Shown: positions 1,594 through 42,358 of the stretch, piece after piece
Layout: each line of letters begins with the position of its first letter
Position numbering within the stretch: the first letter of the stretch is position 1
Source of the DNA: Candidatus Latescibacterota bacterium
GTDB taxonomy: Bacteria > Latescibacterota > CBDEFO01
Direction: 5' to 3'
Length of the DNA stretch: 64,000 bases
Assembly (NCBI GenBank): GCA_965237525.1
Contig: CBDEFO010000008.1
Span: 1,807,607 to 1,871,606, forward strand
Notes under the pieces: model-generated
Seen by the model: the letters and a program-made list of their open reading frames with translations, nothing else
What the model was told of the DNA's origin: nothing
Database searches by the model: none
Program-made: the position numbers and the translations under genes

Positions 1594-2211
1594 TCATTTC
1601 TTTTGAGCTAGAATCCATAAATGATGTTCTAAATAATGGTGTTCTTCTTCCACATGAAGGAGTCTAAATCCAGCTTCTTGAATTAATTTCTTATTTTCTT
1701 CAATTGAATAAGAACTCCATGCCATCTCTGAACCAATCCACTCTTCAACAGCCATAAGCATTCCGTTCATTCCCATGGTAACAAGAATAGGCCCTTTTTC
1801 TTTGAGAATAATGTAAATTTTTTCAAAAAGATGTTTATGCTCTTCTCTCGGAATATGAAAAATTGCGTATAATGAAACAACAGCATCAAATGATCCTGAT
1901 TCAAAATCAATATTAGACAAATCTCCTTTTATGTATTTTGCCTGAGGGACATTCTTCCTTGCAATGTTGATATGTTTTTGTGAAATGTCTATGCCTGTAA
2001 TCTCGCAGCCAGGTTTAACGAGATATTTATCGTAGGGTATTCCAATACCAGAACCAAGATCAAGGATGTTTGCATTTTTAGGGATTAATTGCAATAATTT
2101 ATCAAGAAATCTTTGTTCCATTTCATTCAGGTTTTTATTTAATCTAAAGAATTTTTGGTAATCTCCCTCATCATATCCTTTTTCAACAATTTTCCGTATA
2201 TCTTTTGCCAT
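1594..2211 (-). CDS. Class I SAM-dependent methyltransferase (AT-rich, probably horizontally acquired)
   Basis: 205-aa ORF with motif I ILDLGSGIGIP. The gene is strongly AT-rich relative to neighbours and is bracketed by the 76-bp direct repeats. Confidence 0.6.
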   Translation of the reverse strand: MAKDIRKIVEKGYDEGDYQKFFRLNKNLNEMEQRFLDKLLQLIPKNANILDLGSGIGIPYDKYLVKPGCEITGIDISQKHINIARKNVPQAKYIKGDLSNIDFESGSFDAVVSLYAIFHIPREEHKHLFEKIYIILKEKGPILVTMGMNGMLMAVEEWIGSEMAWSSYSIEENKKLIQEAGFRLLHVEEEHHYLEHHLWILAQKK

Positions 2212-13473: not shown

Positions 13474-14847
13474 CTATCTATGCCTGACAGTATACTGCAG
13501 TTTCTCCTCTCCTCCCGCCTTCACAGGAACCTTAAACTCCAGGGTCTGAGCGTCCTTCCTCTTAAAATCGTGAGACTTTTTGGGTATCTCCCAAAAACCC
13601 CATATGTGCTCTACCACTACGACCTCTATGTCTTCGTCCTTATGATTCCTTAAGGTTATCCCCACATCTTCGTCATAAATCCTATCTGTGATCTTCCTTC
13701 TATTTGCGACTATCCTCTCGCCTACAACGTCAAACGCATCGCCTAATATCAGCCGAACCTCTTCATCCAGGGGCGTATGATCTATCTTATCCTCCCCGAT
13801 GAACTCCAGCGCCTCGTCCACATCTTTTTTGTAGACCCTCACTTTGCCGCCCGGAAGCGCCATCCCCAGTCCCGCTTTTTCGCTGTTTTTGAATTCTAAC
13901 TTCACCTTAACCTTTTTATCGTCTCTTGTTCCATCGTAGTAATAGACCTTTCTGGATTCCACCTCTGTGTTGGGAAATAGAGAAAGCTGTTTGATCTGAT
14001 TATCTTTGATAGTGGTCTTCCTGTCCAAAGAGTACAGGTGATACTCGAAAAAGGCCCTCTCCTCGAACTGAGGGACAGCGACCTTTGCCATAACCTCGAA
14101 ACGCCTCCTCCTGAACTCAAGCTTCTCCTTGACCCTGTGTACATCCCCCGCCACAAGCTTGACTTGCGCGTCCTTGTAATCCGTCCCGGAGCGATTGTCT
14201 ATCGTCACCCATCCCCCCAACTCGGTCTTCTTCTCATCTTTTCCCACAACGGCCACGTACTCAGCGTGCCATTCGATTCCCGATGTCAGGTAACTTATCT
14301 CCCCTGAATGTTCGCCGGCCTTATCCGACTCCAAGAGCCACACTAAAGTCGGCTTTGTGATCAGTTCTACACCCTCGATCTGCTGCAATTGGATATTCTC
14401 AATCGTCTCTAATTTAACTATCCTGATCTGGTCTACCCCCATCAACACAATATCCCCGTCCTTGAAGCTGATCAGCGTGCCCTCGTGGAGGTTTTCTCCC
14501 TTTGCTAAAATGCTAACGTTTCTGTCCAGGTACTTCTCCAGGATCTTCATAGGACTAGATAGGTCGTATTCATAATTCTGTTCTAATATAGCCACTCCAT
14601 CGGGATCGGTAAGCGATTTAAAATGCACAGATGTGGGGTCTATGCTCGAAGCTACATCTGAAAACTTTACCAGGTTTGCCCCTTTCTCTAACTCTATCTT
14701 CCTTACCTCTTTGACCAACGCCAAGTCCTGATTGTAAACTGTCAGCGCTGTCGTCTCGTTTTGGGACTCTCCGGTTCCGCAGAAAAAGTGTAGCGATAAG
14801 AGTACCGCTGCAACGCGGAGTGGTCGCACCACTATCAAAGCACTCAT
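13474..14847 (-). CDS. Secreted hypothetical protein, DUF4139/DUF4140-like
   Basis: 457-aa ORF with an N-terminal signal peptide (MSALIVVRPLRVAAVLLSLHFFCGTG). TVYNQDLALVKE resembles the DUF4140 N-terminal region. The family assignment comes from memory and was not computed. Confidence 0.4.
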   Translation of the reverse strand: MSALIVVRPLRVAAVLLSLHFFCGTGESQNETTALTVYNQDLALVKEVRKIELEKGANLVKFSDVASSIDPTSVHFKSLTDPDGVAILEQNYEYDLSSPMKILEKYLDRNVSILAKGENLHEGTLISFKDGDIVLMGVDQIRIVKLETIENIQLQQIEGVELITKPTLVWLLESDKAGEHSGEISYLTSGIEWHAEYVAVVGKDEKKTELGGWVTIDNRSGTDYKDAQVKLVAGDVHRVKEKLEFRRRRFEVMAKVAVPQFEERAFFEYHLYSLDRKTTIKDNQIKQLSLFPNTEVESRKVYYYDGTRDDKKVKVKLEFKNSEKAGLGMALPGGKVRVYKKDVDEALEFIGEDKIDHTPLDEEVRLILGDAFDVVGERIVANRRKITDRIYDEDVGITLRNHKDEDIEVVVVEHIWGFWEIPKKSHDFKRKDAQTLEFKVPVKAGGEEKLQYTVRHR

Positions 14848-14936
14848 AGCTGTATGCCCTCTAAAACGATGTTAGTCGAAGTCTTTTATAAACTTAACAT
14901 AACATTCCTGATACACAGTTGTCAAGGGAAATCAAC

Positions 14937-14977
14937 AAAAAAGCCGCAGGCATTCCAGTTATGCCCACGGCTTTTTA
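14937..14977. terminator. Bidirectional Rho-independent terminator hairpin
   Basis: aaaaaGCCGcAGGCATtccagttATGCCcaCGGCttttt has A- and T-runs on both sides. It lies downstream of the minus-strand gene ending at 15227. Confidence 0.55.
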
Positions 14978-15226
14978 TCTTCTGCTATATATACAGCTAT
15001 CTTAACTTACGAGCCATGGACATATTCCTCCCCAGCTATACCAGCGGCTGTAATAAATTCCGTAGAAAGGGAGTGAAAATGTCATCAGGCTCTCCTTTTT
15101 CTCCAATGCCGTCCAAATTTGCTCTTTGACTGTGTGTTGCACTAGATATATAATAATCAATATCTGCCGCTTTGTCAAGGGGAACAGTATGAAGTTATAT
15201 TCACCATAACCACATCTGATAATTTA

Positions 15227-16585
15227 TTATTTATTTTTATATAAAACTATTACCCTTCTGATATTTTCTAAATTTGTCATAGTTCCAATTAAAATAAGAG
15301 TTAAGAGGGGCTGATTTATTAAGGCACCTACAAAAATAATAAATGTTCTAACATCACGACGTATTCTGAATGAAAAATCTTTTGAACCAATTCTTCTATT
15401 CAGCAGTCTATTCCTCAAACTATAATACTTGTCTGCAGTATAACTGTTCATAAAAGATCCCATTATTGCCAAAAAACCAATCGCAATGTACAAGAAATTA
15501 TTATTCAAGAGATAAACATAATAAGTTAAACTAAATAAAAGAAATCCATCAGCATATCTATCCAATACTGCGTCAAACCATCCACCGAATGTCGTAGCTT
15601 GGAATGTTAGTCTTGCTACTTCACCATCACAGCCATCAACGATTGATGAGATTTGCGCAAGAATTCCGCCAATAACTAAATTAACATACCCACCTAAAAA
15701 GAAGAAATATGCACCCAACATAGAGATGATAAAAGGAAAAAAAGAAATAGAATTTGGACTTATGCTAGTTTTTACAAGATACTTTGAAATAATAATTGAT
15801 ATAGGCCTATTTAAATACCTTGAAACAGGACCATCGGAAGTTTTTTTCAGATTAGTAATAAGCTTGTCGGATGCTTTTTTTAAATCGTCCTGCGTATCTA
15901 TATCTGTCCACCAAAGCTCGATGTTTTTTCTCATCTTTGAGGGGTAACTTTCGATCTTGGTAATATCAAATATCTCAGCGTCTCCATTTTTGGCGGCTTT
16001 TTTGATACTGTCCCTAAGTTCTCCTTTTTTCTCATTTGCCGCCTCTTCTATATAAGAAAATATCTTCGGTGAACATAAAAAGATGCCCGTATCTACGCAG
16101 TTTGACTCCCTTATGTTCTTGCCTATATCGACGATCTTCCCATTTCTTTCCAGGACTTTCGTATCCTCTTTGCACGGCTCTTTTCTATCGACTGCTAAAA
16201 CCACAGAACTTTTCATATCACATTTTACAAGTTCATTTAAGATACGATCATCAAAGATATGGTCTGACATCAACAGGACAAAGTTCTCATTCAACGCCTC
16301 TTTGGCCTTTAAAACGGAGGCTCCATTTTCTTCCTTTTGCCATTCTTTATTCTGAATATAATCTATTTTTACTCCGAGTCTCTCTCCGTCTCCTAACTTT
16401 TCTTTTATTTTGTCCCCACGATAACCGACAACTATCAAAAATTCGTGAATATCCGCTTGTTTTGCAGTTAATACTGTTCTTTCAATCAATGATAAACCTA
16501 AGAGTTGGATTAGCGGTTTTGGTTTATCTGTAGTTAGATCGCCTAATCTACCACCGTCCCCAGCGGCTATTATCAACGCTTCCAT
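15227..16585 (-). CDS. Bifunctional nucleotidyltransferase / CDP-alcohol phosphatidyltransferase (IPCT/DIPPS-like); strongly AT-rich
   Basis: The N-terminus (ALIIAAGDGGRLGDLTTDKPKPL) is a sugar- or inositol-phosphate cytidylyltransferase fold. The C-terminal membrane domain carries the CDP-OH phosphotransferase signature DGcDGevARltfqattfGGwfDavlDryaD. Gene GC is far below that of its neighbours. Confidence 0.55.
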   Translation of the reverse strand: MEALIIAAGDGGRLGDLTTDKPKPLIQLLGLSLIERTVLTAKQADIHEFLIVVGYRGDKIKEKLGDGERLGVKIDYIQNKEWQKEENGASVLKAKEALNENFVLLMSDHIFDDRILNELVKCDMKSSVVLAVDRKEPCKEDTKVLERNGKIVDIGKNIRESNCVDTGIFLCSPKIFSYIEEAANEKKGELRDSIKKAAKNGDAEIFDITKIESYPSKMRKNIELWWTDIDTQDDLKKASDKLITNLKKTSDGPVSRYLNRPISIIISKYLVKTSISPNSISFFPFIISMLGAYFFFLGGYVNLVIGGILAQISSIVDGCDGEVARLTFQATTFGGWFDAVLDRYADGFLLFSLTYYVYLLNNNFLYIAIGFLAIMGSFMNSYTADKYYSLRNRLLNRRIGSKDFSFRIRRDVRTFIIFVGALINQPLLTLILIGTMTNLENIRRVIVLYKNK

Positions 16586-17087
16586 ACTTGTCCTCCTTCA
16601 AGCCTTTCAAAATATTCCTCTGATTCTTATAGGAAGATACGAAATGAGGTGTTTGATGTCAATAGAGACTGGGGGGAATAATCCGTTGGCCAATCTTTTT
16701 TTCTCCTCTCAACGACTACTCATTGTCCTCCCTGACTTCCCATGGAACACTCTCGACGGCGGTTCTCTGAACTCTACAGAGGGTATCCTTGCAGAGTATA
16801 GGGCACTACCCAATCCTCTTCAATCTCCAGGCCGAAATCTCCAGGCCGAATCCCGGTCCGTCAGTTGGGACGATATAGCTGTCTAATGGACTCCGGTAAA
16901 ACTCTCTTCCCAATCCCCACATCTGGTCTTCGACCGTCACCTTCACCCAGACATCTCCGAACTTGGACGTCCAGCTTCGTTGGCGTCTCTTGCACGTGGG
17001 ATACCTCGACAGGGGAGTTGGGACCTCGGAGTCTTCCGCTCAGAACGTACACCTCAGCTATCTCATTGGTCCTTCTCATGGAGAGCC

Positions 17088-18008
17088 TTAACGTTCACTG
17101 TCTCTATCTTCTTGATCTTCCTTATTCTCTCCTTGCCTTGTTAATGTCTGGATGAACCTCTCAGCCGGAACAGTAAGGACTTTTCCCCTTTTATGGATGA
17201 TTCCAAGCGGTCGCTTGAACCTCTTATCTTTGAAATCTATCGCCTTGAGCGTACCGTGCTGGATCTCCTTCTCCACCGTTACCGATGGGACAATGGACAC
17301 TCCTGAGTCAGCTTCAACGGCATGCTTTAGCGTCTCCACATTATCGATCTCCATGGTAATCTCAACTTGAACCTTATGGTCTTTCAGGATCTTGTCCACC
17401 ACCCTCCTTGTGGGAGTGTCCTTCTCGAACGCCACGAATCTCTGTCCCTGCAACATCTCCACGTCTAACTTATCAAATCTTGATAGAGCATGGTCGGGAT
17501 TGGATATGACCACTAACTCATCCTCCTTAAAAGGAATTATCTCGATCCCGCCTTTTCTGACCGGATAGACTACTATCCCCAAATCGATCTTGTTATTTAT
17601 CACGTTTTCGTATATCTGATCTGCCCGGTCGTAATCCAGGATCACGTCTACCTGAGGATACCTCCTGAAAAATGTCTTCAGATACGATGAAAGCTCGTGT
17701 ATCCCAACGCTGTATATAGCCTCCATCTTTATTGTCCCTGTAACCACGCCCGATAGCTCTTGAAGCGCAGCTTCCAGCTCATCGTATCTTTGAACTATAT
17801 CCTTACACCCCTTATAGAAAATCTCCCCCGCAGGAGTCAAATTCAGACCGCGTTTTCCTCTCTCCACAAGCTTATGACCGAACGCCTCCTCAGCCTTCTT
17901 TAACTGCTGACTTACAGCCGACTGGGAGATGAAATTGCTGCTTGCGGCCCTGGAAAAGCTTCCGCTCTCGACCAGATCGCAGAAGATCTTCAGACTCTCT
18001 ATAAGCAT
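17088..18008 (-). CDS. LysR-family transcriptional regulator
   Basis: 306-aa ORF with an N-terminal HTH (LKIFCDLVESGSFSRAASSNFISQSAVSQQLKKAEEAFG) and a C-terminal substrate-binding domain. Confidence 0.85.
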   Translation of the reverse strand: MLIESLKIFCDLVESGSFSRAASSNFISQSAVSQQLKKAEEAFGHKLVERGKRGLNLTPAGEIFYKGCKDIVQRYDELEAALQELSGVVTGTIKMEAIYSVGIHELSSYLKTFFRRYPQVDVILDYDRADQIYENVINNKIDLGIVVYPVRKGGIEIIPFKEDELVVISNPDHALSRFDKLDVEMLQGQRFVAFEKDTPTRRVVDKILKDHKVQVEITMEIDNVETLKHAVEADSGVSIVPSVTVEKEIQHGTLKAIDFKDKRFKRPLGIIHKRGKVLTVPAERFIQTLTRQGENKEDQEDRDSER

Positions 18009-18227
18009 CGTTAAGCACCTATTTCTAAGCGTATTTAAAGCGCGCTATAGCTCTACATTTGGGCTAATAGTGTCAGACTCTAAGGGATCGCCTAATATTA
18101 GTTTACTTAATAATAAGTATTAAATCAATTAATTTGACTTATAATACCAATTATGATAACTTTATTTATAAGCAATACAGAGAGCGGACACTTCAAACCT
18201 TAAATAATATAGAAGAGGTGAAAAACT

Positions 18228-18323
18228 GTGAAATCACACATGCTGATAGAGCATATAAGCCTGGTTGCACTTATATCAGCGTTTGCGCTGTATGCCTTCC
18301 ACAGCGTTGCTGTCTTGTTCTAG
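18228..18323 (+). CDS. Small hydrophobic peptide, paralog A (31 codons from GTG: VKSHMLIEHISLVALISAFALYAFHSVAVLF)
   Basis: A GAGGTG ribosome-binding site sits 7 nt upstream of the GTG. A terminator-like hairpin, GCTCCGgcccttgggtCGGAGC followed by ttttccatttt, follows the gene. Two further paralogs lie downstream. Confidence 0.5.
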   Translation: MKSHMLIEHISLVALISAFALYAFHSVAVLF

Positions 18324-18469
18324 TGCATAAGGCTTCAACGCCAATCTTACAGAAGGTGGGAAGCTCCGGCCCTTGGGTCGGAGCTTTTCCATTTTCTCTC
18401 CCACACCTTCCGTAGAGTATCCTCCTGCTGGTTTCAAGTTCAGAACGTTTTTCCTCTCTACACAGCGTA

Positions 18470-18612
18470 ATACCGAACGCCTTCTGTATATTCTTTATCT
18501 GCTGACTGACAGCCGACTGGGAGACGATATTGCTGGTTGGCGCCCTGGAAAAGCTTCCGCTCTCGACCAGATCGCAGAAGATCGTCAGACTCTCTATAAG
18601 CATCATAAGCAT
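18470..18612 (-). pseudogene. Truncated duplicate of the LysR regulator 5' end (HTH fragment)
   Basis: Encodes MLIESLTIFCDLVESGSFSRAPTSNIVSQSAVSQQIKNIQKAFG and then degenerates. The nucleotide sequence is a diverged copy of 17881-18008. A third, more degraded copy lies at about 19370-19480. Confidence 0.7.
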
Positions 18613-18935
18613 CTTTAGGTGCTAATTCCAATATGAAATGTACAGTGCCGCCATATTTTCATAATGAAATGTTTCTATTGCATTGCGCATCTACAAGCGC
18701 GGTATGACTCGATATTCAGGTGATTACCATAAGTAAACTAAAGGGATGTAACTCTATGTTATTAAACTATTTGCTCTGACGAGATATAAGGAATAGAATA
18801 TGACCTTTTACGATTAGAGGCTGCTGTTCAACCGTCGGCACAAATGTTGCTCAACATAGCTATTACACGGTACAAAAAAGACGGTACAAAACACAGACAA
18901 TTCAAACTTTAAATCATTAAGGGAGGTGAAAGACA

Positions 18936-19031
18936 GTGAAATTACTAATGCTGATAGAAGGTATAAGTCTGATTGTGGCAATAGCAGCGTTTGAGATGTA
19001 TGCCTACGACAGCATCTCTGCCCTGTTCTAA
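18936..19031 (+). CDS. Small hydrophobic peptide, paralog B (VKLLMLIEGISLIVAIAAFEMYAYDSISALF)
   Basis: A GGGAGGTG ribosome-binding site sits 6 nt upstream of the GTG. Upstream the motif cagacaattcaaactttaaatcat is conserved. Confidence 0.5.
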   Translation: MKLLMLIEGISLIVAIAAFEMYAYDSISALF

Positions 19032-19121
19032 CCCATCAGGGTTGTAGATTGCTCTAATATTATTGAGCTGCACGAAGCACAGACAATTCAACTTTAAATC
19101 ATAGAAAGGGGGTGAAAAACT

Positions 19122-19217
19122 GTGAAATCACAGATGCTGATAGAGCATACAAGCCTGGTTGCACTTATATCAGCGTTTGAGATGTATGCCTACAACAGCG
19201 TCGCTGCCTTGTTCTAA
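19122..19217 (+). CDS. Small hydrophobic peptide, paralog C (VKSQMLIEHTSLVALISAFEMYAYNSVAALF)
   Basis: A GGGGGTG ribosome-binding site precedes the GTG. It is followed by the same terminator hairpin as paralog A. Confidence 0.5.
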   Translation: MKSQMLIEHTSLVALISAFEMYAYNSVAALF

Positions 19218-19904
19218 TGCATAAGGCTTCAACTCCAATCTTACAGAAGGTGGTAAGCTGCGGCCCTTGGGTCGGAGCTTTTCCATTTTCTCTCCCACAT
19301 CTTCCGTAGCGTATCCTCCTGCTGGTTTCAAGTTCAGACCGTTTTTCCCCTCTCCACAAGCTTATGGCCTAACGCCTTCTGTATATTCTTTCTCTGCTGA
19401 CTGACAGCCGACTTGGAGACAGAATTGCAGCTTGCTGGCGCGAAGCACTTCCGCTCTTGTAGGTTCATGCTTCCGAGGGATGATTGTAGACGCTTCTTGT
19501 TGTAGTCCTCAATCCATTGGGATATGATATGATCTGTTCGAAGGACTCCAAACGGTTAGACCAAACACACTTTTTATTCAGGTTCCAGAAAAAACGTTTC
19601 CCGTTGCCCACTCATACGCCTGCGACTGGCCGATGCCATTTTCCCGATACATCCGCTCTTTCCAAAAGAGTCAACACGACCTGTGCCTTTCTAAATGCTG
19701 TCCAACTCTAACTATCTTTCGCTACAGGGATTGACATCTTTTTGACCTCCTTTCCCCGATAACCTCACTCGGGGACAAGCCTCAAACCCCAATTTGCATA
19801 ATATCTGTGGATTTGTCAAGAGCAACAGTGTGACACATGCTTTGCTTCTATATTATCTTGACATTCAAAACTATCAGTTGTATTTTGGTTATGCGCCACA
19901 GAAT

Positions 19905-20780
19905 ATGCACTACTCTTATGCTTCCGGGGAAAGGTCGCCTTTGAGAACACTTATCGCGCTCATACAACTTACAAGACCCTTAAACTGTCTGATCTGTTTT
20001 TTCTCCGTGATCGTAGGCGCAGCAGCGTCGGGGACTATAGCTTCGCCTCTTAAAGCTATCGTTGCCGCCTTTTCTGCAACTCTTATCGCCGCGGCTGGCA
20101 ATGGCTTTAACGACCTTTCTGACGTGGAAGCCGACAGGATAGATAAACCCCACCGTCCTATACCGTCCGAGGTAGTAACAAAGCGCACCGCTTCTATTCA
20201 ATCTACGCTGCTCTTCATCGGCGGTATGCTCCTGTCGTTCCTTATAAATAAAGGGGCAGTTGTCGTAGTTTTTGCAACAACTCTTCTTCTGATTCAATAT
20301 AGCATTAGATTAAAATCTATTCCGCTGGTGGGTAATTTTACGGTCAGTTGCGTTGCAGCTTTAGCCTTTGTCTACGGGGGACTTTCTACAGGAAGCATAT
20401 ACGCATCCTTTATACCCGCACTATTTGCCATCCTTTTCCACCTTGGACGGGAGATCATCAAAGACGTAGAAGACATCCAGGGGGACATGCACTCCAATTA
20501 TTCCACTTTCCCCGTTATCAAAGGCAAAAAAGCGGCGTTTGCAGCCGCTACCGCCGTCTACACTATGCTTATGCTTCTGACTCTTGTGCCCTACCCGCTT
20601 CGCATCTACGGTTCGGCCTATCTAGTCATCGTGGTTGTGGGGGTGCATCCTGTGCTCATATATGTTATCAGATCTATGTGGAAGGATGATTCCTCCGCCA
20701 ACCTCAAAAGACTCAGCACTATCCTCAAAGCTGATATGGTCGTCGGTCTTGTTGCTGTCCTTGTTGGAGCTAACGTCTGA
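19905..20780 (+). CDS. UbiA-family membrane prenyltransferase
   Basis: It carries the NGFNDLSDVEADRIDKPHRPIPS (NxxxDxxxD) motif and a second Asp-rich motif (GREIIKDVEDIQGD), with multiple TM helices. The annotated ATG at 19794 probably lies upstream of the true start. Confidence 0.75.
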   Translation: MHYSYASGERSPLRTLIALIQLTRPLNCLICFFSVIVGAAASGTIASPLKAIVAAFSATLIAAAGNGFNDLSDVEADRIDKPHRPIPSEVVTKRTASIQSTLLFIGGMLLSFLINKGAVVVVFATTLLLIQYSIRLKSIPLVGNFTVSCVAALAFVYGGLSTGSIYASFIPALFAILFHLGREIIKDVEDIQGDMHSNYSTFPVIKGKKAAFAAATAVYTMLMLLTLVPYPLRIYGSAYLVIVVVGVHPVLIYVIRSMWKDDSSANLKRLSTILKADMVVGLVAVLVGANV

Positions 20781-20782
20781 AG

Positions 20783-21613
20783 TTGGAGAGCCAGTTGGAG
20801 AAGGTCTCTGGATTCTGGATAGGTCTCATACTTGCTGCTTTAGTAGCCACTCTTTCATACAGAGTCCGATTTCTGACTGTCAGTGGCTCAGTCGGAGCGC
20901 TTGTTTTAGGAACTGTTATCTTCGGATTGGGAGGACTGCCATGGGTTTTTGCTCTTCTTGTCTTTTTCTTGGCATCAAGTCTCCTATCCAAACTCGGCGC
21001 AAAGAGGAAAAAGGATTTCAGGGCTGTCTTTGAAAAGGCATCGACTAGGGATCTTGCCCAGGTTCTGGCCAACGGAGGCGTCCCCGGGGCTATAGTGCTA
21101 GCGAACGCTCTTTTGCCATCTCCGATCTGGTGTACAGCATATTTAGGGGCCCTTGGCACTGCCACAGCAGACACGTGGGGGACAGAGATAGGCATCCTCT
21201 CGGTCTCCCGCCCTCGTCTTATAACTGACCTCAAAACAGTTGATCCCGGAACATCGGGAGCCGTTTCTTTTATTGGACTTACAGGGTCCGTTCTCGGTTC
21301 TCTCCTTATCGCCTCTACGGGATTGGCCTTTTACCCCTATTTGAATGTCCTGAACTTGACAGCTATCTGGCTTGCTGGAATTGCAGGGGCCCTCGCAGAC
21401 AGTCTGTTGGGAGCGACTCTACAGCGGGAATATACATGCCCCAAATGTCTCCAACAGACAGAGCGCCCTTTTCACTGTGAAGAAACGTCCTGTCGTTTAA
21501 CTTCTGGGATAAGCTGGCTTGGAAATGATGCTGTCAATGCCCTATCGTCCCTCTATGGAGCCATCTTTGCCTTGATAGTAGATAGGCTATTAGACCTGTT
21601 TATTTGCCTCTAA
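20783..21613 (+). CDS. DUF92/TMEM19-like integral membrane protein with an inserted CxxC...C..C zinc-ribbon-like segment
   Basis: 276-aa polytopic protein whose glycine-rich TM pattern is typical of DUF92. It contains YTCPKCLQQTERPFHCEETSC. It starts 3 nt after the UbiA stop. Confidence 0.45.
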   Translation: MESQLEKVSGFWIGLILAALVATLSYRVRFLTVSGSVGALVLGTVIFGLGGLPWVFALLVFFLASSLLSKLGAKRKKDFRAVFEKASTRDLAQVLANGGVPGAIVLANALLPSPIWCTAYLGALGTATADTWGTEIGILSVSRPRLITDLKTVDPGTSGAVSFIGLTGSVLGSLLIASTGLAFYPYLNVLNLTAIWLAGIAGALADSLLGATLQREYTCPKCLQQTERPFHCEETSCRLTSGISWLGNDAVNALSSLYGAIFALIVDRLLDLFICL

Positions 21614-22485: not shown

Positions 22486-22943
22486 ACCTATCTGGATAAA
22501 GGACGAATAGACGAAGCCCGTGATCTTTGCAACAGAGCCGCCCTACTGACAGAGGACGAATCTATAATTGCAAAAAGATATGAGGAGACGGGAGATGTGC
22601 TTATGCTGTTAGGAGAGTTTGGGAAAGCCAAAGAATGTTTTCAAAAGGGCATTCGTCTTCTCGACGGATAAAATTAAGGTGGAGTAGTACGGCATGGAGA
22701 GCGCTAGTACTCGCGTGGAGAAATCCACACCAATACCGGCAAGTCCTTCTTTACTATCCTCAAGCGGGGAGTAGATGGCACCTTCTATCATGTCTCTAAG
22801 TAACCCGTTCACCGTCATACGGACGACTTCGCGTTCCGGCGGTCTCGCAGAAAGCTGACCGACGGCAAGCGTGCGGTGGAAATCATCCTATGCGCTGGCG
22901 AGAAGCGGCTGGGTAACCGAGAGCCAAAGCTCGGAAACTGTGC

Positions 22944-23819
22944 ATGAACAAGTACGTTCTCTACAACGTTGACGCCTTCGAGTGGTTGTCCGAACAGCCG
23001 GTAGATTCCATACATGCTGTAGTCACTGATCCTCCTTACGGGCTTGTTGAGTACCGCGACCAAGAGTTGGAGAAAATGAAGCGTGGGCGGGGCGGCGTGT
23101 GGCGTATACCTCCTGCGTTTGATGGCGCGAAGCGAAGGCCATTACCCCGTTTCACCGTCCTGAGCGATAGGGATAAGGATAACCTCAACGGGTTTTTCTA
23201 CCGCTTTGCCAAGCTCTTGCTGCCTATCTTGGTTCCTGGGGCTCACGTCTTTGTAGCGACGAACCCGCTTGTGTCCCACCTGGTCTATACACCGTTTGTT
23301 GAGAGGGGATTTGAGCCACGCGGCGAGGTAATCCGACTTGTTCAACGATTGAGGGGTGGCGACCGTCCAAAAAACGCACACAAGGAGTTCCCGGACGTGA
23401 CGGTGCTGCCGAAATCGTGTTGGGAGCCGTGGGGTCTCTTCCGTAAGCCGTGTGAGGGTCGCGTGCAGGACAATCTCCGCAAGTGGAGGACGGGGGGGCT
23501 GAGACGCATTTCGGATAAGGAACCATTCAAAGACTTGATACGGTCGTCCCCCACTAGACGGGATGAGTTCGGCTTGGCTTCTCACCCGTCGCTCAAGCCG
23601 CAACATTTCTTGCGCAAGATCGTAAGGGCGGCGCTCCCGTTCGGAGAGGGGGTCATTCTTGACCCCTTCATGGGATCGGGATCAACCATAGCTGCCGCAG
23701 AGACGCTCGGTCTACGCAGCATTGGCCTTGAGATCAGACGCGAATACTTCCAGATGGCTCTTGAGGCTATACCTAAGCTCGCAGCTTTCAAGGTGCAGGA
23801 TCGGGAGAGCAATGGCTAG
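22944..23819 (+). CDS. DNA methyltransferase, beta-class (N6-adenine or N4-cytosine), type II restriction-modification
   Basis: Motif IV TDPPYG lies near the N-terminus and motif I DPFMGSGST near the C-terminus. The gene is GC-rich relative to its flanks. Confidence 0.75.
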   Translation: MNKYVLYNVDAFEWLSEQPVDSIHAVVTDPPYGLVEYRDQELEKMKRGRGGVWRIPPAFDGAKRRPLPRFTVLSDRDKDNLNGFFYRFAKLLLPILVPGAHVFVATNPLVSHLVYTPFVERGFEPRGEVIRLVQRLRGGDRPKNAHKEFPDVTVLPKSCWEPWGLFRKPCEGRVQDNLRKWRTGGLRRISDKEPFKDLIRSSPTRRDEFGLASHPSLKPQHFLRKIVRAALPFGEGVILDPFMGSGSTIAAAETLGLRSIGLEIRREYFQMALEAIPKLAAFKVQDRESNG

Positions 23820-24417
23820 GCTTCAGGACTTCGATTCTGCCGTTCCGCTGCCGCCCGGTCTTGCAGTACGCGCCATCCGCTCGTCCATCGAGTATATCGA
23901 GCGGGATTTGGATGATCTCCTTGATGTCTACTTTGAGCAAATGAACGTTTTTAGTGCCCTCGTGGGGATGTATGGCACCCGCGCCCTTGACCAGCACAGT
24001 GTCTACGAGAAGGTAAGACACACCGATATTGCTCAGACGCGCTTTCCCGACCTGAGGCGACGGGGAAGCGGTCAGCACCCACCCCCGAATGAGTGCCTCG
24101 AATCCAAAGCGAGCAAGAGGGTATGGGCGCTCCAATCGCATTACGACCATGAAGGATGGTATATCGTCTGGCGTTACATGGTTGATACGACCGCTTCGAT
24201 TGAGCCTGACAAGCATGTTCTTATCTGGCGTGTGGATGTGGTGTACTTGCAGAGCAACGACTGGAAGTACGAGGGGAGCAAGGCCGGTGCCGAAGGAGGT
24301 GGCCGGACTCATACGTTCGGCTTGTGGAAACCGGCCACGAAGCTAAGGGGATGTAGTGTTTACAGGCGGTCGGATATCGCCATCTCAGGAGGTAAGCCGG
24401 TTCCGATCAATGGGTGA
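23812..24417 (+). CDS. Putative restriction endonuclease partner (PD-ExK candidate)
   Basis: The ATG at 23812 overlaps the methyltransferase stop by 8 nt. FPDL ... ECLESK gives a PD-x(n)-E-x-K arrangement. The same GC-rich island. No recognisable family otherwise. Confidence 0.4.
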   Translation: MARLQDFDSAVPLPPGLAVRAIRSSIEYIERDLDDLLDVYFEQMNVFSALVGMYGTRALDQHSVYEKVRHTDIAQTRFPDLRRRGSGQHPPPNECLESKASKRVWALQSHYDHEGWYIVWRYMVDTTASIEPDKHVLIWRVDVVYLQSNDWKYEGSKAGAEGGGRTHTFGLWKPATKLRGCSVYRRSDIAISGGKPVPING

Positions 24418-24730
24418 ACGAGCAGGAACCGGGATGCCAGCCAAGAAACCTGGCCCCAAACCGCTAACGCTCTCCTTATACCCTCTCCCCCCGATGAGGC
24501 GCTGTCCGCGTTCATGGAGGTGGACCCGGGGAGAAGGTGAAGGCGAAAGAGAAGAGGTAGAAGGCCACAAGGCAGTAGACAAAATGTGGGTACTAACCGC
24601 CGTGGACGCTTTGTCAGGGAGTGGAGGCAGCAGCGCACGAAGTGCCGCCCCCTACTCCCTTTTTATTGACGAACAGGAGTCAACTGCTTAGATTTGCATC
24701 GGAGCAAGCTTTGGACAGACTGGAGGAAAT

Positions 24731-36709: not shown

Positions 36710-37429
36710 TTATTCTTCGAGAATTTCTGAAAGGTTTCTGATGATTCGGTCAGGATGCACTTGGGTCGCATCAGGCAAACCTTTACCCGCAAAGTCCACC
36801 CAAATAGCGAAAATCCCCAGGCGCTGGGGACCCTTCACATCCCAGTCCAGATTATCCCCGATCATCCACGTATCCTCTGGCTCTACGTTGAGTCGATCCA
36901 GACTATGCACGTAAACCCGTTCATCGGGTTTGCCGACACCAAATTCATCTTCGACAAGGATGTAATCGAAGAGATTGGCCAGTCCGAACTTCTCTATCTT
37001 TCTCCGCTGTTCATCGGCGTTTCCATTTGTGATAAGCGCCAAGCGGATACCTTTTTCCCGGAGTCGGTGCAGGGCTTCGATGGCTCCGGGAAATGGCTGG
37101 ACGGTTTCCTCTCTTTTGGAGGTGTACGAGTCTGCTATTTCGTTAGCCAAAGTTCCGTCATTTATCTTCAAACGATGAAAGGCACCAGCGACGATTTCTC
37201 GCCGCGCCATTCCTAAGTTCAGGCGCCCCCTACGATGACGTTCGGGATTCTGCCAGAACCAGGTACGGCTTTGCCTGATGGCTTCGAATAGAGCTTCGGT
37301 CTTAAGTCCTTCTACTCTAAACGCAAATTTCTCACAGATTCTTCGCCAAGTCGGCTCTGCGCACTCGGAGAACGCCAGAATTGTATCGTCCAGATCAAAT
37401 AGAATGGCTTTTGGTAGACTATTTTTCAC
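36710..37429 (-). CDS. HAD-superfamily hydrolase (subfamily IA)
   Basis: Motif I DLDDT is in AILFDLDDTILAF. Motif IV is WMIGDNLDWDVKG. Confidence 0.75.
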   Translation of the reverse strand: MKNSLPKAILFDLDDTILAFSECAEPTWRRICEKFAFRVEGLKTEALFEAIRQSRTWFWQNPERHRRGRLNLGMARREIVAGAFHRLKINDGTLANEIADSYTSKREETVQPFPGAIEALHRLREKGIRLALITNGNADEQRRKIEKFGLANLFDYILVEDEFGVGKPDERVYVHSLDRLNVEPEDTWMIGDNLDWDVKGPQRLGIFAIWVDFAGKGLPDATQVHPDRIIRNLSEILEE

Positions 37430-40839: not shown

Positions 40840-42358
40840 AAGCCTTGTGAAATAGTTATGTCCCAGGCAGCGTCTGAAGCGCCGATTATGGGTCAAAGAG
40901 TAGCATATCGTATCGTTTTGCTGTGGAATAAGCAAAATAGTCTTATCAGAGTTCTGGTCAGCAAGGAACAGGAGCTGTTTGAAGAACAGGATGCACTGTC
41001 TTTGACAGACAGGGCACACATAGACGCTTTCCCCCTTCTTATGAAAGATACAAGCCTCTTGAGATTCTGTACTGTTGCAACAAGATTCAACTGTTCATTC
41101 AGTGAGGCTGGTCCTCTATAACGGGCTCGTCCCATACCGTGTTGTTGCCTGGCTTCAGCAAAGATATGTTCACTGCGTTTACGGAGTCTCCGGGAGAGTT
41201 TGTAGTCAGCTGTTAATGAGATAGACCGTGCATGATTTCTGGCTTTCGCCTCTCGCACTTTTCTATCCCGTTCGGCCTGAATATGTGCTGGATTTGTCTT
41301 GTTTTTCCATGTAGGAATCGGTTCAATCTTCTCATCGGCTCGCAGAGGAATATGGGGTATGATTCCCCGGTCAAGTACATCAGCGATAAAATTACCAGAA
41401 CCGTAACCGGTATCGGCACTAAGTGTCTGAATGTCTTTGGGCATGGTGTATGTTTCAAGGTCATCTACCATCTTAAGGGCACTTTCGGGCTCTGCTGTCC
41501 CTGTCGCCTGCGTGCCCTGAGTCTCAAGGATTACTCTGCTTTTTGTGTCGATCAGATCATGGCCCATAAACGAGAGAAAAGCCCCTTTGCCCTTCGATTT
41601 GCTGTATAAGCGCGCGTCGGGGTCTGTAGTCGAACGGTGTGTTTGGTTCGTCCACTTTTCACCATGAAAGTCTTTATCCTGAGGATGCCCGGACCTACCC
41701 TTTGTCTTATCACCTTCAAAACCGATTCCCTTGAGATAATCATCAAGAGAAAAAGGGGGTTCTATCGGCTCAATACTTTTCACTGAAGCATCAGCTTGTA
41801 TCTGAGTGCCGTCGACACTAAGGTGTTTACCGCTCACAAGACCGACATCTATGCAACACTGGACTACCTGACGCATTATCCGTTCAAACAACCCACTGGA
41901 TGCCCACTTGTGATTGCGAAGCTTGTTGATCGTGCTCCTATCCGGAACCGCATCATCAAATGTCTGATGACAAAACAACCGATATGCCGCATGCATCCCC
42001 ACTTCCTGACAGAGCCGATTCTCACTCAAATTATACAGATAGCCAATAAGGATCATTCGAACAACTAATTCAGGATCAATACCGGGTCTGCCATTGTCAG
42101 GGCAATAACAATCTGATACAACGTCTCGTACAAATGAAAAATCAACTGCCTCATCAATCTGACGAAGGATATGATCCTCGGGAACTAAATCCTCCATCTG
42201 AAAATAGTGAAACATCGGATTTGTCTGTTCCTGCTTTTGTGGGGTCATTGTTTCCTCCATGTATAATATTATCAATAACATAATATAATACATCGGAGCT
42301 GCTTTATCAATGCTTGTTCTATACTACTTTCTGAATCTAAGGGTTTTTCACAAGGCTT
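40840..42358 (-). mobile_element. IS5-family insertion sequence, copy 1 (1519 bp) with a 4-bp target duplication CTAA (40836-40839 and 42359-42362)
   Basis: Terminal inverted repeats are AAGCCTTGTGAAA...TTTCACAAGGCTT. It is about 99% identical to the copy at 61816-63338. The transposase is intact. Confidence 0.85.
40893..42248 (-). CDS. IS5-family (InsH/DUF772-like N-terminus, DDE) transposase
   Basis: About 451 aa from MTPQKQEQTN. The regions LVVRMILIGYLYNLSENRLCQE...AVPDRSTINKLRN, LSVDGTQIQADAS, LSADTGYGSG and NHARSISLTADYKLSRRLRKRSEHIFAEARQ parallel IS5 InsH regions. Confidence 0.8.
   Translation of the reverse strand: MTPQKQEQTNPMFHYFQMEDLVPEDHILRQIDEAVDFSFVRDVVSDCYCPDNGRPGIDPELVVRMILIGYLYNLSENRLCQEVGMHAAYRLFCHQTFDDAVPDRSTINKLRNHKWASSGLFERIMRQVVQCCIDVGLVSGKHLSVDGTQIQADASVKSIEPIEPPFSLDDYLKGIGFEGDKTKGRSGHPQDKDFHGEKWTNQTHRSTTDPDARLYSKSKGKGAFLSFMGHDLIDTKSRVILETQGTQATGTAEPESALKMVDDLETYTMPKDIQTLSADTGYGSGNFIADVLDRGIIPHIPLRADEKIEPIPTWKNKTNPAHIQAERDRKVREAKARNHARSISLTADYKLSRRLRKRSEHIFAEARQQHGMGRARYRGPASLNEQLNLVATVQNLKRLVSFIRRGKASMCALSVKDSASCSSNSSCSLLTRTLIRLFCLFHSKTIRYATL

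What the first reader, a model, noticed from the sequence alone, without database searches (positions are those of the whole stretch)
15227..16585. Strongly AT-rich bifunctional cytidylyltransferase / CDP-alcohol phosphotransferase gene (IPCT/DIPPS-like) embedded in a roughly 50% GC chromosome
It fuses an N-terminal NTP-transferase domain to a C-terminal membrane CDP-OH phosphotransferase domain carrying the full D-G-x2-A-R...G-x3-D-x3-D signature. This is the architecture of the CTP:inositol-1-phosphate cytidylyltransferase / di-myo-inositol-phosphate phosphate synthase used to make a compatible solute. Related fusions make other polyol-phosphodiesters. 

Its base composition is very different from the flanking genes, and it has its own bidirectional terminator. 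This suggests lateral acquisition of an osmo- or thermo-protectant pathway gene.
Basis: partly seen in the sequence, partly recalled or inferred. Interest (0 to 1): 0.55.

Follow-up and report, generated by a model that had tools for sequence, protein, structure and literature searches.

The report
Acquired inositol-solute synthase gene, without partners
A Latescibacterota-type bacterial chromosome carries an intact, strongly AT-rich gene, probably acquired from another organism, for a two-domain membrane enzyme built like the one hyperthermophiles use to make the protective solute di-myo-inositol phosphate. It belongs to an untested sister branch of that enzyme family and lacks the partner genes that usually flank it.

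Summary
ORF 15227-16585 (- strand, 452 aa) fuses an NTP-transferase domain to a six-helix CDP-alcohol phosphotransferase domain with the complete Dx2DGx2AR...Gx3Dx3D motif. Its GC is 0.349 and GC3 0.313, against 0.496 and 0.552 for 42 other ORFs (z = -4.7 and -4.4).

The best sequence and fold matches are A. fulgidus IPCT/DIPPS (4MND) and AF2299. However, the gene is not in the characterised Archaeoglobales/Thermococcales clade. It scores 278 bits on NCBIfam NF041135 (cutoff 580; AF0263 scores 628), and identity between the two clades is about 33%.

It belongs to a large, uncharacterised sister clade that is interleaved between many bacterial and archaeal phyla. In 41 of 58 informative loci that clade sits next to an inositol-1-phosphate synthase or a TM0415-like inositol kinase. 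In 36 of 58 it is followed by a DUF4202/HD protein.

Fifty-seven positions are conserved identically in both clades, including both catalytic motifs. Inositol-phosphate chemistry, and probably DIP synthesis, is therefore the best reading.

Here the gene stands alone: the 64-kb window has no MIPS, kinase, DUF4202 or IMPase. It is syntenic, intact and under purifying selection (dN/dS 0.36) in a 96%-identical relative. Lateral acquisition is well supported, but the donor and the product are unproven. Interest is moderate.

The parts
15227..16585 (-). Complete CDS, 452 aa: bifunctional NTP-transferase / CDP-alcohol phosphotransferase (IPCT/DIPPS-like, sister clade)
   Evidence: ORF list; Pfam; NCBIfam; PDB sequence hits 4mnd and 4o6m; AlphaFold2 model with pLDDT 88 and pTM 0.83; fold search
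15848..16585 (-). N-terminal cytoplasmic nucleotidyltransferase domain (residues 1-246), predicted CTP:inositol-1-phosphate cytidylyltransferase
   Evidence: PF00483 at residues 3-242. Best PDB hit for this domain is the A. fulgidus IPCT domain 2xme, 78.5 bits. G9, R13, K23, D108, H109, D133, D165-G167, W226, D228 and D230 are conserved identically in both the characterised clade and this clade
16517..16561 (-). Nucleotide-binding signature G9-x-G11-x-R13 ... K23 of the NTP-transferase domain
   Evidence: Translation; invariant columns in A1; shared with the classical clade
15227..15829 (-). C-terminal membrane CDP-alcohol phosphotransferase domain (residues 253-452 plus stop): juxtamembrane helix and six transmembrane helices
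   Evidence: PF01066; helices 253-271, 277-297, 300-327, 332-361, 364-395 and 410-451 in the model; 41.5% identical to the AF2299 TM domain and 35.8% to that of AF0263
15560..15637 (-). Catalytic CDP-alcohol phosphotransferase motif D317x2D320G321x2A324R325x8G334x3D338x3D342
   Evidence: Translation; all eight residues invariant in the family and in the classical clade
16592..16596 (-). Shine-Dalgarno GGAGG, 6 nt upstream of the ATG
   Evidence: Sequence read directly
16634..16662 (-). Sigma-70-like promoter match (TTGACA-17-TATCTT) about 50 nt upstream of the start, inside the AT-rich stretch
   Evidence: Consensus scan only; not evidence of function
14938..14976 (-). Intrinsic-terminator-type hairpin (16 bp stem, A-tract 5' and U-tract 3'), 250 nt downstream of the stop codon and upstream of the DUF4139 gene
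   Evidence: Terminator scan; fold -23.6 kcal/mol, z = -3.9
15100..16700 (.). AT-rich stretch (100-bp windows with GC 0.21-0.46) containing the gene, its 5' leader and part of the 3' untranslated region
   Evidence: Composition profiles

Best explanation
The gene encodes an intact bifunctional enzyme of the IPCT/DIPPS type.

Its cytoplasmic N-terminal domain would activate L-myo-inositol-1-phosphate with CTP to give CDP-inositol. Its six-helix membrane domain would transfer the phospho-inositol group to a second soluble inositol-1-phosphate, giving di-myo-inositol-phosphate phosphate. A phosphatase would then convert that to the compatible solute DIP.

The gene was acquired laterally by an ancestor of this Latescibacterota lineage from an AT-rich donor. 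It arrived as a single gene, without the inositol-1-phosphate synthase and DUF4202/HD genes that usually flank it. It has since been kept under purifying selection.

Shown: the domain architecture, motifs and fold; the clade membership; the compositional anomaly; synteny and selection against a close relative; and the inositol-gene neighbourhood of relatives.

Inferred: the substrates, the product, the direction and donor of the transfer, and the physiological role (osmo-, piezo- or stress protection).
For: Architecture and motifs.

Matches to known enzymes. The full-length best PDB sequence hit is A. fulgidus IPCT/DIPPS 4MND (E 1.8e-48). The best NCBIfam model is IPCT/DIPPS, covering residues 1-450 against model positions 1-418 of 419 (E 1e-82). 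The high-confidence model (pLDDT 88) matches the 4MND fold best, then AF2299.

Conserved residues. Fifty-seven positions are at least 93% conserved with the same residue in both the characterised clade and this clade. They include both catalytic motifs, the N259-R260 juxtamembrane pair and R410-D411-x-R413. Only 9 positions are conserved but differ between the clades, and most of those changes are conservative.

Neighbourhoods of relatives (58 genome loci with enough flank):
- 32 have MIPS within 5 kb.
- 11 have a PfkB kinase whose best PDB match is TM0415, the PPi-dependent myo-inositol 1-kinase (E 1e-48 to 1e-49).
- 41 have one or the other.
- 36 have a DUF4202/HD gene directly downstream. 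In some proteins DUF4202 is fused to the enzyme (P0029, P0030, P0037, P0081).

Six TM helices with no extra C-terminal helices is the layout reported for CDP-alcohol phosphotransferases that use soluble acceptors (PMC4634129).

A stand-alone gene has a precedent in the characterised clade: the Archaeoglobales locus L089 has no adjacent MIPS.

Lateral transfer:
- GC z = -4.7 and GC3 z = -4.4.
- This gene has the largest GC deficit, -0.137, of 76 family loci; the median is -0.033.
- The family tree interleaves archaea and bacteria.
- The relatives at 61-64% identity sit in contigs of about 32% GC. Two of these contigs carry archaeal marker genes, and there the gene matches its flanks in GC.

Retention: the gene is syntenic in L001 (96% aa identity), with dN/dS 0.36 and dS 0.047, within the range of its neighbours.
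Against: The protein fails the NCBIfam equivalog cutoff: 278.5 bits against a cutoff of 580. A truncated copy of the characterised A. fulgidus enzyme scores 627.7.

Identity between the clades is only 29-39%.

The N-terminal domain alone scores almost the same on an archaeal sugar-1-phosphate nucleotidyltransferase model (115 bits) as on the IPCT part of the IPCT/DIPPS model (126 bits).

The membrane domain is closer to AF2299 (41.5% identity) than to the DIPPS domain (35.8%). The natural substrates of AF2299 are unknown, and it was crystallised with CDP-glycerol.

No member of this sister clade has been assayed, as far as the papers I could search show.

In this genome no MIPS, inositol kinase, DUF4202, GH130, GT4 or IMPase gene occurs in the 64-kb window, and no remnants flank the gene.

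The donor is unresolved, because bootstrap support is below 30% beyond the WINDOW+L001+P0002 group.
Confidence: 0.6

Rival explanations
1. The enzyme has the same architecture but a different soluble product. It would make another polyol phosphodiester, for example glycero-phospho-inositol or diglycerol phosphate, using CDP-glycerol as donor or glycerol phosphate as acceptor, or an as yet unknown inositol phosphodiester. On this reading the sister clade is not isofunctional with DIPPS.
For: The membrane domain is nearer to AF2299 than to DIPPS: the family is on average 43% identical to AF2299, against 34% for the characterised clade. AF2299 binds CDP-glycerol in crystals (PMC4634129). The equivalog cutoff is failed. 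The N-domain is not clearly closer to IPCT than to sugar-1-phosphate nucleotidyltransferases. Non-conservative clade-specific differences occur at W82/P, N380/V and E440/R.
Against: The tight linkage to MIPS or an inositol kinase means that at least one substrate is inositol phosphate. No glycerol-phosphate cytidylyltransferase or glycerol-phosphate dehydrogenase recurs among the neighbour clusters. Nearly all residues conserved in the characterised clade are also conserved here (57 against 9).
Confidence: 0.17
2. The enzyme makes a lipid head group. It would make CDP-inositol and transfer phospho-inositol onto a membrane alcohol (diacylglycerol, ceramide or an ether lipid), as proposed for the alternative Bacteroides vulgatus cluster. 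This might connect with the DGGGP-synthase-like UbiA gene 3 kb away.
For: An NTP-transferase plus CDP-alcohol phosphotransferase route to inositol lipids has been proposed for Bacteroidetes (PMC9246714). The family occurs in several Bacteroidota loci. The window encodes a UbiA protein that best matches prenyltransferase and geranylgeranylglycerol-phosphate geranylgeranyltransferase models, plus a DUF92 protein, at 19794-21613. The 72%-identical relative P0002 also has a UbiA fragment nearby.
Against: There are six TM helices and no extra C-terminal helices, which is the layout reported for soluble-acceptor enzymes. The nearest structural relatives, 4MND and AF2299, do not process lipids. The conserved downstream partner is a soluble HD-type protein, which fits a phosphorylated soluble intermediate. 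UbiA and DUF92 have host-like GC, lie on the opposite strand and are separated from the gene by LysR and repeats. No UbiA cluster recurs near the family in the 80 loci.
Confidence: 0.08
3. The gene is an orphan passenger. It was captured without its pathway partners and has no substrate supply in this host, so it is functionally idle or on its way to decay.
For: No MIPS, inositol kinase, DUF4202 or IMPase lies in 64 kb, and there are no remnants next to the gene. Its composition remains strongly foreign, with little shift towards that of the host.
Against: The reading frame is intact, every catalytic residue is present, and there is a good Shine-Dalgarno. The gene is present at the same site in a relative whose flanks have diverged by 3-6%. 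Its dN/dS of 0.36 and 18 mostly conservative replacements are comparable with neighbouring housekeeping genes. Characterised Archaeoglobales enzymes also sit apart from MIPS.
Confidence: 0.08
4. The gene is not a lateral acquisition. The low GC would reflect the intrinsic composition of a membrane-protein gene of this family, or local mutational bias, and the gene would be ancestral in Latescibacterota.
For: Family genes are on average slightly AT-richer than their flanks (median -0.033). No integrase, tRNA, flanking direct repeat or transposase lies next to the gene. An empty-site comparison could not be made.
Against: The deficit is concentrated at synonymous third positions (GC3 z = -4.4) and not at second positions (z = -1.2). 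Other membrane proteins in the window have normal GC: UbiA 0.467 and DUF92 0.501. The deficit is the most extreme of 76 loci. The gene's closest relatives outside its own lineage are not FCB-group bacteria.
Confidence: 0.07

Closest known systems
Bifunctional IPCT/DIPPS of hyperthermophiles (A. fulgidus AF0263, PDB 4MND; Thermococcales enzymes; NCBIfam NF041135)
   Same: Both have the same two-domain order, the same fold (Foldseek E 2.7e-27) and the same six-TM membrane domain. Both catalytic motifs are present, along with 57 positions conserved identically in both clades. Relatives of the query are linked to MIPS, as Thermococcus is.
   Different: Identity is about 33% (27% to 4MND in the structural alignment). 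The NF041135 score is 278 bits, against a cutoff of 580 and 628 for AF0263. The gene order in relatives is MIPS-enzyme-DUF4202, whereas Thermococcus has enzyme-MIPS and no DUF4202. The hosts are mostly uncultured lineages known only from metagenome assemblies, many from marine sediment, rather than cultured hyperthermophiles. There are no biochemical data.
AF2299 of A. fulgidus (PDB 4O6M/4O6N/4Q7C), a CDP-alcohol phosphotransferase of unknown physiological substrate
   Same: It is the closest solved membrane domain: 162 bits over residues 211-448 and 41.5% identity. It shares the DG-x-(I/V)-(S/A)-R-x-(I/L)-N-R juxtamembrane motif and the RDxR motif.
   Different: AF2299 has only a truncated cytidylyltransferase-like N-domain, whereas the query has a complete NTP-transferase with all catalytic residues. 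AF2299 was crystallised with CDP-glycerol. No gene-context evidence is available for AF2299 here.
'IPCT-DIPPS' genes annotated in MAGs of non-thermophiles (Atribacteria from methane-hydrate sediment; deep-sea and hadal Thaumarchaeota)
   Same: Atribacterota loci L010, L017, L041, L045 and L048 belong to the same clade as the query, at 53-55% identity. The literature already infers DIP synthesis in such organisms as an osmotic or pressure adaptation.
   Different: Those reports rest on annotation only. Atribacterota loci carry the TM0415-like kinase next to the gene, while the Latescibacterota copy has no partner gene nearby. I did not test whether the Thaumarchaeota genes belong to this clade.
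Archaetidylinositol-phosphate and phosphatidylinositol-phosphate synthases (NF040950, NF045883; PDB 5D92, 6WM5)
   Same: They share the CDP-alcohol phosphotransferase fold and motif, a six-TM layout and an inositol-phosphate acceptor.
   Different: They have no nucleotidyltransferase domain, and their donor is a lipid (CDP-archaeol or CDP-DAG). Scores are far below cutoffs: 84 against 180 bits and 56 against 170 bits.
[quoted passage not shown]
   Same: The logic is the same: MIPS, then CDP-inositol formation, then a CDP-alcohol transferase (PMC9246714).
   Different: The proteins there are separate, the partner is a HAD hydrolase rather than an HD/DUF4202 protein, and the proposed acceptor is a lipid. 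The proposal is unconfirmed. I did not test sequence relatedness to the query.

Membership tests
[quoted passage not shown] | N-terminal NTP-transferase domain with GxGxR...K and acidic catalytic residues | tested here: met
   PF00483 at residues 3-242, E 3e-19. G9, G11, R13, K23, D108, D133, D165, D228 and D230 are invariant in the family. All of these except G11 are also among the positions conserved with the same residue in the characterised clade.
[quoted passage not shown] | C-terminal CDP-alcohol phosphotransferase domain with Dx2DGx2AR...Gx3Dx3D | tested here: met
   D317, D320, G321, A324, R325, G334, D338 and D342 are all present and invariant.
[quoted passage not shown] | Overall fold: cytoplasmic domain, juxtamembrane helix and six TM helices, as in 4MND | tested here: met
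   Model with pLDDT 88 and pTM 0.83. The top Foldseek hit is 4MND, E 2.7e-27, TM 0.67/0.73.
[quoted passage not shown] | Sequence membership in the characterised orthologous group (NCBIfam NF041135 equivalog cutoff of 580 bits) | tested here: not met
   The query scores 278.5 bits, while a fragment of A. fulgidus AF0263 scores 627.7. Identity between the clades is 29-39%, against 45-95% within the query's clade and at least 48% within the characterised clade. The query sits in a sister clade.
[quoted passage not shown] | Association with a supply of inositol-1-phosphate (MIPS or inositol kinase) in the same genome | tested here: inconclusive
   Relatives: 41 of 58 loci have MIPS or a TM0415-like kinase within 5 kb. 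This genome: none in the 64-kb window.
[quoted passage not shown] | Catalysis of CDP-inositol and DIPP formation | not testable with these tools
   This needs an enzyme assay with 31P-NMR. I found no assay of any member of this sister clade in the searchable literature.
AF2299-type CDP-alcohol phosphotransferases | Membrane domain most similar to AF2299 | tested here: met
   162 bits over residues 211-448. Identity is 41.5% to AF2299, against 35.8% to AF0263. The family mean is 43%, against 34% for the characterised clade.
AF2299-type CDP-alcohol phosphotransferases | Truncated, non-catalytic cytidylyltransferase-like N-domain | tested here: not met
   The query has a full-length NTP-transferase domain (residues 1-246) with its catalytic residues. 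The AF2299 alignment begins only at query residue 211.
Archaetidylinositol-phosphate / phosphatidylinositol-phosphate synthases | Stand-alone CDP-alcohol phosphotransferase that passes the family cutoffs | tested here: not met
   NF040950 scores 84.4 bits (cutoff 180) and NF045883 scores 56.1 bits (cutoff 170). The query also has an extra N-terminal enzyme domain.
   No PgsA model appears among the 25 NCBIfam models listed (33 matched) or among the 31 PDB matches. The best matches are IPCT/DIPPS and AF2299.
Laterally acquired gene or genomic islet | Composition and codon third positions deviate from the host | tested here: met
   GC z = -4.7 and GC3 z = -4.4 against 42 ORFs. This is the largest deficit among 76 family loci.
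Laterally acquired gene or genomic islet | Phylogeny incongruent with organismal relationships | tested here: met
   The NJ tree interleaves archaeal and bacterial phyla. The nearest relative is P0002 at 72%, followed by proteins at 61-64% from AT-rich contigs, two of which carry archaeal marker genes. The donor is not resolved.
Laterally acquired gene or genomic islet | Mobility hallmarks (integrase, tRNA target, flanking repeats) or an empty site in relatives | tested here: not met
   There is no tRNA in the window. No repeats flank the gene. The transposase ORFs identified (40893-42293, 62156-63226) lie at least 24 kb away. An empty-site test was impossible because the nearest non-identical DUF4139 relatives are at most 60% identical and not syntenic.

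The most novel reading that the evidence does not exclude
The gene represents a large, biochemically untested sister clade of IPCT/DIPPS. This clade, rather than the hyperthermophile clade, would be the main vehicle of inositol-phosphodiester solute synthesis in nature. It has spread by transfer through many bacterial and archaeal phyla known mostly from metagenome assemblies, many from marine sediment. It normally travels as a MIPS (or PPi-inositol-kinase)-enzyme-DUF4202 cassette, in which the uncharacterised HD-type DUF4202 protein would be a dedicated phosphatase for the phosphorylated intermediate. The Latescibacterota copy would then show that the central enzyme alone can be captured and kept, working with host-supplied inositol phosphate and a generic phosphatase, or making a product other than DIP.
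Probability: 0.3. Interest if true: 0.55.

Novelty: new member of a known kind. Interest (0 to 1): 0.38.

Why it matters
DIP was long treated as a marker of life above about 55 °C. Genome surveys have begun to report IPCT/DIPPS-like genes in cold, deep or high-pressure sediment organisms.

This locus adds a Latescibacterota lineage to that list. More usefully, it shows that these non-thermophile genes form a separate clade, about 33% identical to every enzyme that has been assayed, with a partner gene (DUF4202/HD) that the two characterised-clade loci examined lack. If the clade does make DIP, the solute's ecological meaning shifts from heat protection to general osmotic, pressure or starvation protection, and DUF4202 becomes a testable candidate for the pathway's phosphatase. 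If it does not, many MAG annotations of 'DIP synthesis' are wrong.

For this genome the practical point is modest. It holds one well-preserved, clearly foreign gene whose function depends on an inositol-phosphate supply that has not been located.

Tried and rejected
- **Exact look-up of the protein's contig.** It was not on record, so the source genome beyond the window could not be read.
- **Organism identification.** It was only inferred from a 96%-identical homologue in a Candidatus Latescibacterota chromosome (L001).
- **Partner genes in the window.** tblastn of all neighbour families (MIPS, TM0415-like PfkB, DUF4202, GH130, GT4) against the whole window gave one chance hit only. A relaxed search of the two flanking intergenic regions found no pseudogene remnants of MIPS or DUF4202.
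- **Pfam scan of 30 further window ORFs.** It found no IMPase or MIPS. A HAD hydrolase (36710-37429) and a 7TM-HD protein (44518-46770) are present but about 20 kb or more away, and no evidence links them to the gene.
- **Empty-site test for the insertion.** Homologues of the flanking DUF4139 gene drop from 100% straight to 60% identity, and the two contigs inspected are not syntenic, so the test is uninformative.
- **Donor identification by NJ tree with bootstrap.** Only the WINDOW+L001+P0002 group is supported (100%). Deeper nodes have less than 30% support.
- **Rfam scan of 14000-20000.** It was run for a riboswitch or leader upstream of the gene and to explain the repeats beyond LysR; it gave no match.
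- **DUF4202 partner.** There was no PDB sequence match, no NCBIfam model and no paper mentioning it.
- **'The C-terminal domain is really an AF2299 orthologue, so this is not DIPPS.'** I considered and rejected this as a decisive argument. The preference is modest (41.5% against 35.8%), and the catalytic and pocket residues are shared by all three groups.
- **A MIPS search for the host genome through the protein database.** I did not attempt it. Only 120 hits are listed per search, so a host MIPS was unlikely to appear among them.
Full report
**What is there**

An ORF of 452 codons lies exactly at 15227-16585 on the minus strand. It has an ATG start and a GGAGG Shine-Dalgarno 6 nt upstream. 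Pfam places an NTP_transferase domain at residues 3-242 and a CDP-OH_P_transf domain at 276-383. The eight-residue CDP-alcohol phosphotransferase signature is complete (D317, D320, G321, A324, R325, G334, D338, D342), as is the nucleotidyltransferase G-x-G-x-R...K signature. All of these residues are invariant in an alignment with 27 relatives.

An AlphaFold2 model built on that alignment is confident (pLDDT 88, pTM 0.83). It shows a cytoplasmic α/β domain, a juxtamembrane helix and six transmembrane helices, with no additional C-terminal helices.

**Composition**

The gene has GC 0.349 and GC3 0.313. Forty-two other ORFs of at least 150 aa in the window average 0.496 and 0.552, giving z = -4.7 and -4.4. 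GC2 is barely shifted (z = -1.2), so the anomaly is synonymous and not a consequence of membrane-protein amino-acid content. Other membrane proteins nearby (UbiA, DUF92) have normal GC. The AT-rich stretch spans roughly 15100-16700.

A strong hairpin with an A-tract and a T-tract lies at 14938-14976 (-23.6 kcal/mol, z = -3.9), 250 nt beyond the stop codon. It sits in DNA of normal GC, and both neighbours are on the same strand. Whether it came in with the gene is therefore open.

**Host and locus**

A scan of one genome per species returned a 96%-identical protein at a syntenic site in a Candidatus Latescibacterota chromosome (L001). The shared order is trpG-trpE-DUF4139-[gene]-LysR-UbiA-DUF92.

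The two genomes are 94-97% identical in nucleotides across the region. The gene shows 18 amino-acid replacements, dS 0.047 and dN/dS 0.36, inside the range of its neighbours (dS 0.035-0.46, dN/dS 0.11-0.59). It was therefore present before these two lineages split and has been maintained by selection.

**Which family**

The best solved-structure sequence hit is A. fulgidus IPCT/DIPPS (4MND) over the full length, at E 1.8e-48. AF2299 matches the C-terminal half almost as strongly on its own, at E 1.4e-46. The best fold matches are 4MND and then AF2299. The best NCBIfam model is the IPCT/DIPPS equivalog NF041135, aligned end to end, but at 278.5 bits against a cutoff of 580.

As a control, a 387-residue fragment of the characterised A. 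fulgidus enzyme, rebuilt from the printed alignment, scores 627.7 bits on the same model. The query's C-domain and AF2299's C-domain score 167 and 157 bits. The query's N-domain scores 126 bits on NF041135 and 115 bits on an archaeal sugar-1-phosphate nucleotidyltransferase model.

A database search seeded with the A. fulgidus enzyme returns 720 proteins. The named hits are from Archaeoglobales and Thermococcales, and the listed hits are at least 53% identical to it. The query's own search returns more than 3,700 proteins at up to 72% identity outside its own 90% cluster.

In a joint alignment, mean identity is 65% within the query's clade, 57% within the characterised clade and 33% between them (range 29-39%). 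AF2299's membrane domain is 43% identical to the query clade and 34% to the characterised clade. The gene is thus a member of a distinct sister clade, not of the assayed orthologous group.

**What argues that the chemistry is nevertheless the same**

1. Fifty-seven alignment positions are at least 93% conserved with the same residue in both clades. They cover both catalytic motifs, the D251-G252...N259-R260...S263 juxtamembrane segment and R410-D411-x-R413. Only nine positions are conserved but different, and six of those changes are conservative.

2. Gene neighbourhood. I called ORFs in 80 genome loci carrying a relative and clustered the neighbours. The recurrent neighbours are:
   - a 369-aa protein with the Inos-1-P_synth domain, scoring 460 bits on the inositol-3-phosphate synthase model;
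   - a 297-aa PfkB kinase whose best PDB matches are TM0415 (E 1e-48 to 1e-49), the pyrophosphate-dependent myo-inositol 1-kinase (PMC5931981);
   - a 189-aa DUF4202/HD protein.

   Among the 58 loci with enough flanking sequence, 32 have MIPS, 11 have the kinase, 41 have either, and 36 have DUF4202 directly downstream. In several database proteins DUF4202 is fused to the C-terminus of the enzyme.

   ANME-1/Methanophagales loci add a GT4 glycosyltransferase and a GH130 protein that best matches β-mannobiose phosphorylase models, including a β-1,2-specific one. From my own knowledge, β-1,2-mannosylated DIP is known from Thermotoga. That makes a soluble DIP-type product attractive, but this is only a lead.

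3. The six-TM layout is the one reported for CDP-alcohol phosphotransferases with soluble acceptors (PMC4634129).

**This genome's copy stands alone**

None of the partner families is detectable by tblastn anywhere in the 64 kb. No remnants flank the gene. Pfam scans of 30 other ORFs show a trp operon, DUF4139, LysR, UbiA, DUF92, transposases and others, but no MIPS or IMPase.

The nearest relative outside the lineage (P0002, 72%) still has DUF4202 downstream. Of four relatives at 59-64% identity that I looked up, three have MIPS directly upstream and two have DUF4202 downstream. The one locus with neither adjacent carries archaeal marker genes (TBP, LSM, proteasome).

Standing apart from MIPS is not disqualifying. 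An Archaeoglobales locus of the characterised clade has no adjacent MIPS, whereas Thermococcus has MIPS immediately downstream. Whether this genome has an inositol-phosphate source could not be determined with the tools and caps available.

**Lateral transfer**

- The GC deficit relative to flanks (-0.137) is the largest among 76 family loci; the median is -0.033.
- A bootstrapped NJ tree rooted on AF0263 shows archaeal and bacterial phyla thoroughly interleaved. Only the WINDOW+L001+P0002 group is supported around the query.
- Relatives at 61-64% identity sit in contigs of about 32% GC. Two of these carry archaeal marker genes (TBP, LSM and proteasome; prefoldin and L37ae), and in them the gene's GC equals that of the flanks. 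This is consistent with an AT-rich donor, possibly archaeal, but does not prove it.
- No mobility hallmarks adjoin the gene.
- An empty-site comparison failed for lack of close relatives.

**Comparison with the literature**

MAG studies already annotate IPCT-DIPPS with MIPS in Atribacteria from hydrate sediments and in deep-sea Thaumarchaeota, and remark that DIP genes were previously known only from organisms growing above 55 °C. Atribacterota loci fall within the query's clade.

The occurrence of such a gene in a sediment-type bacterium is therefore not new in kind. What the analysis adds is threefold: the non-thermophile genes form a separate, unassayed clade; that clade has a conserved DUF4202/HD partner; and the Latescibacterota copy has neither of its usual partners nearby. 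An alternative lipid route through CDP-inositol proposed for Bacteroides (PMC9246714) is kept as a minor rival.

**Verdict**

Membership in the characterised orthologous group was tested and not met. 'Works like IPCT/DIPPS' is the best-supported mechanism (about 0.6), on the grounds of conserved catalytic and pocket residues and the inositol-gene neighbourhood of relatives. Interest is moderate: this is a clean example of a single-gene acquisition and a pointer to an untested enzyme clade, but not a new kind of system.

Noticed in passing
window 17853-19435: There is a tandem duplication with a period of about 894 bp between LysR and UbiA. Degenerate copies of the LysR 5' end (72-88% identical) lie at 18448-18604 and 19343-19435, and 269-nt units lie at 18196-18464 and 19090-19358 (91% identical). 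The window holds one more unit than the relative L001. Rfam has no match there.
   Followed up: partly
window 22664-24568: This segment of about 1.9 kb is absent from the otherwise collinear relative L001, which has about 52 bp at that point. Its GC is higher (0.56), and it contains an ORF with a DNA methylase N6_N4_Mtase domain (22944-23819). It is a second, independent indel or islet.
   Followed up: partly
window 1594-2211 (- strand): This is the only other strongly AT-rich ORF in the window (GC 0.325, GC3 0.248), and it is even more extreme than the target gene. It encodes a SAM-dependent methyltransferase with weak matches to BioC and BchM-type models, all below cutoffs. It may be another foreign gene.
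   Followed up: partly
window 19794-21613 (+ strand): A UbiA-family prenyltransferase here best matches a generic 'prenyltransferase' model (NF009523, 205 bits), closely followed by an archaeal-type geranylgeranylglycerol-phosphate geranylgeranyltransferase (DGGGP synthase) model (197 bits); both are below cutoffs. It is followed by a DUF92/TIGR00297 membrane protein; from memory, that is the family of the plant phytyl-phosphate kinase VTE6. This could be an archaeal-like ether-lipid or prenyl-salvage pair in a Latescibacterota genome. Both genes have host-like GC.
   Followed up: partly
window 40893-42293 and 62156-63226 (- strand): Two ORFs carry DUF772 plus DDE_Tnp_1 transposase domains.
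   Followed up: no
related loci L003-L080, L081, L082, L084; proteins P0029, P0030, P0037, P0081: A conserved cassette, MIPS (or TM0415-like PPi-inositol kinase)-enzyme-DUF4202/HD, recurs in these loci. DUF4202 is sometimes fused to the enzyme. DUF4202 has no PDB, NCBIfam or literature match. It is a candidate phosphatase for the phosphorylated product.
   Followed up: partly
loci L006, L009, L011, L015, L019 (ANME-1/Methanophagales/Methanosarcinales), L032: These loci carry an extended cassette, MIPS-GT4 glycosyltransferase-GH130-enzyme-DUF4202. The GH130 protein best matches β-mannobiose phosphorylase models, including a β-1,2-specific one. This hints at a mannosylated inositol phosphodiester.
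   Followed up: partly
locus L060 (Planctomycetota): Two tandem paralogues of the enzyme (463 and 460 aa) lie between MIPS and DUF4202. One of them sits on a very long branch in the tree.
   Followed up: no
locus L081 9282-9977: A stand-alone 231-aa CDP-alcohol phosphotransferase sits between MIPS and the bifunctional enzyme. It is presumably an inositol-phospholipid synthase sharing the same inositol-phosphate supply.
   Followed up: no
window about 20000-21000: Cumulative GC skew reaches its minimum here. The point coincides with the switch from minus-strand to plus-strand genes. I did not examine whether it reflects replication or only transcription-strand bias.
   Followed up: no
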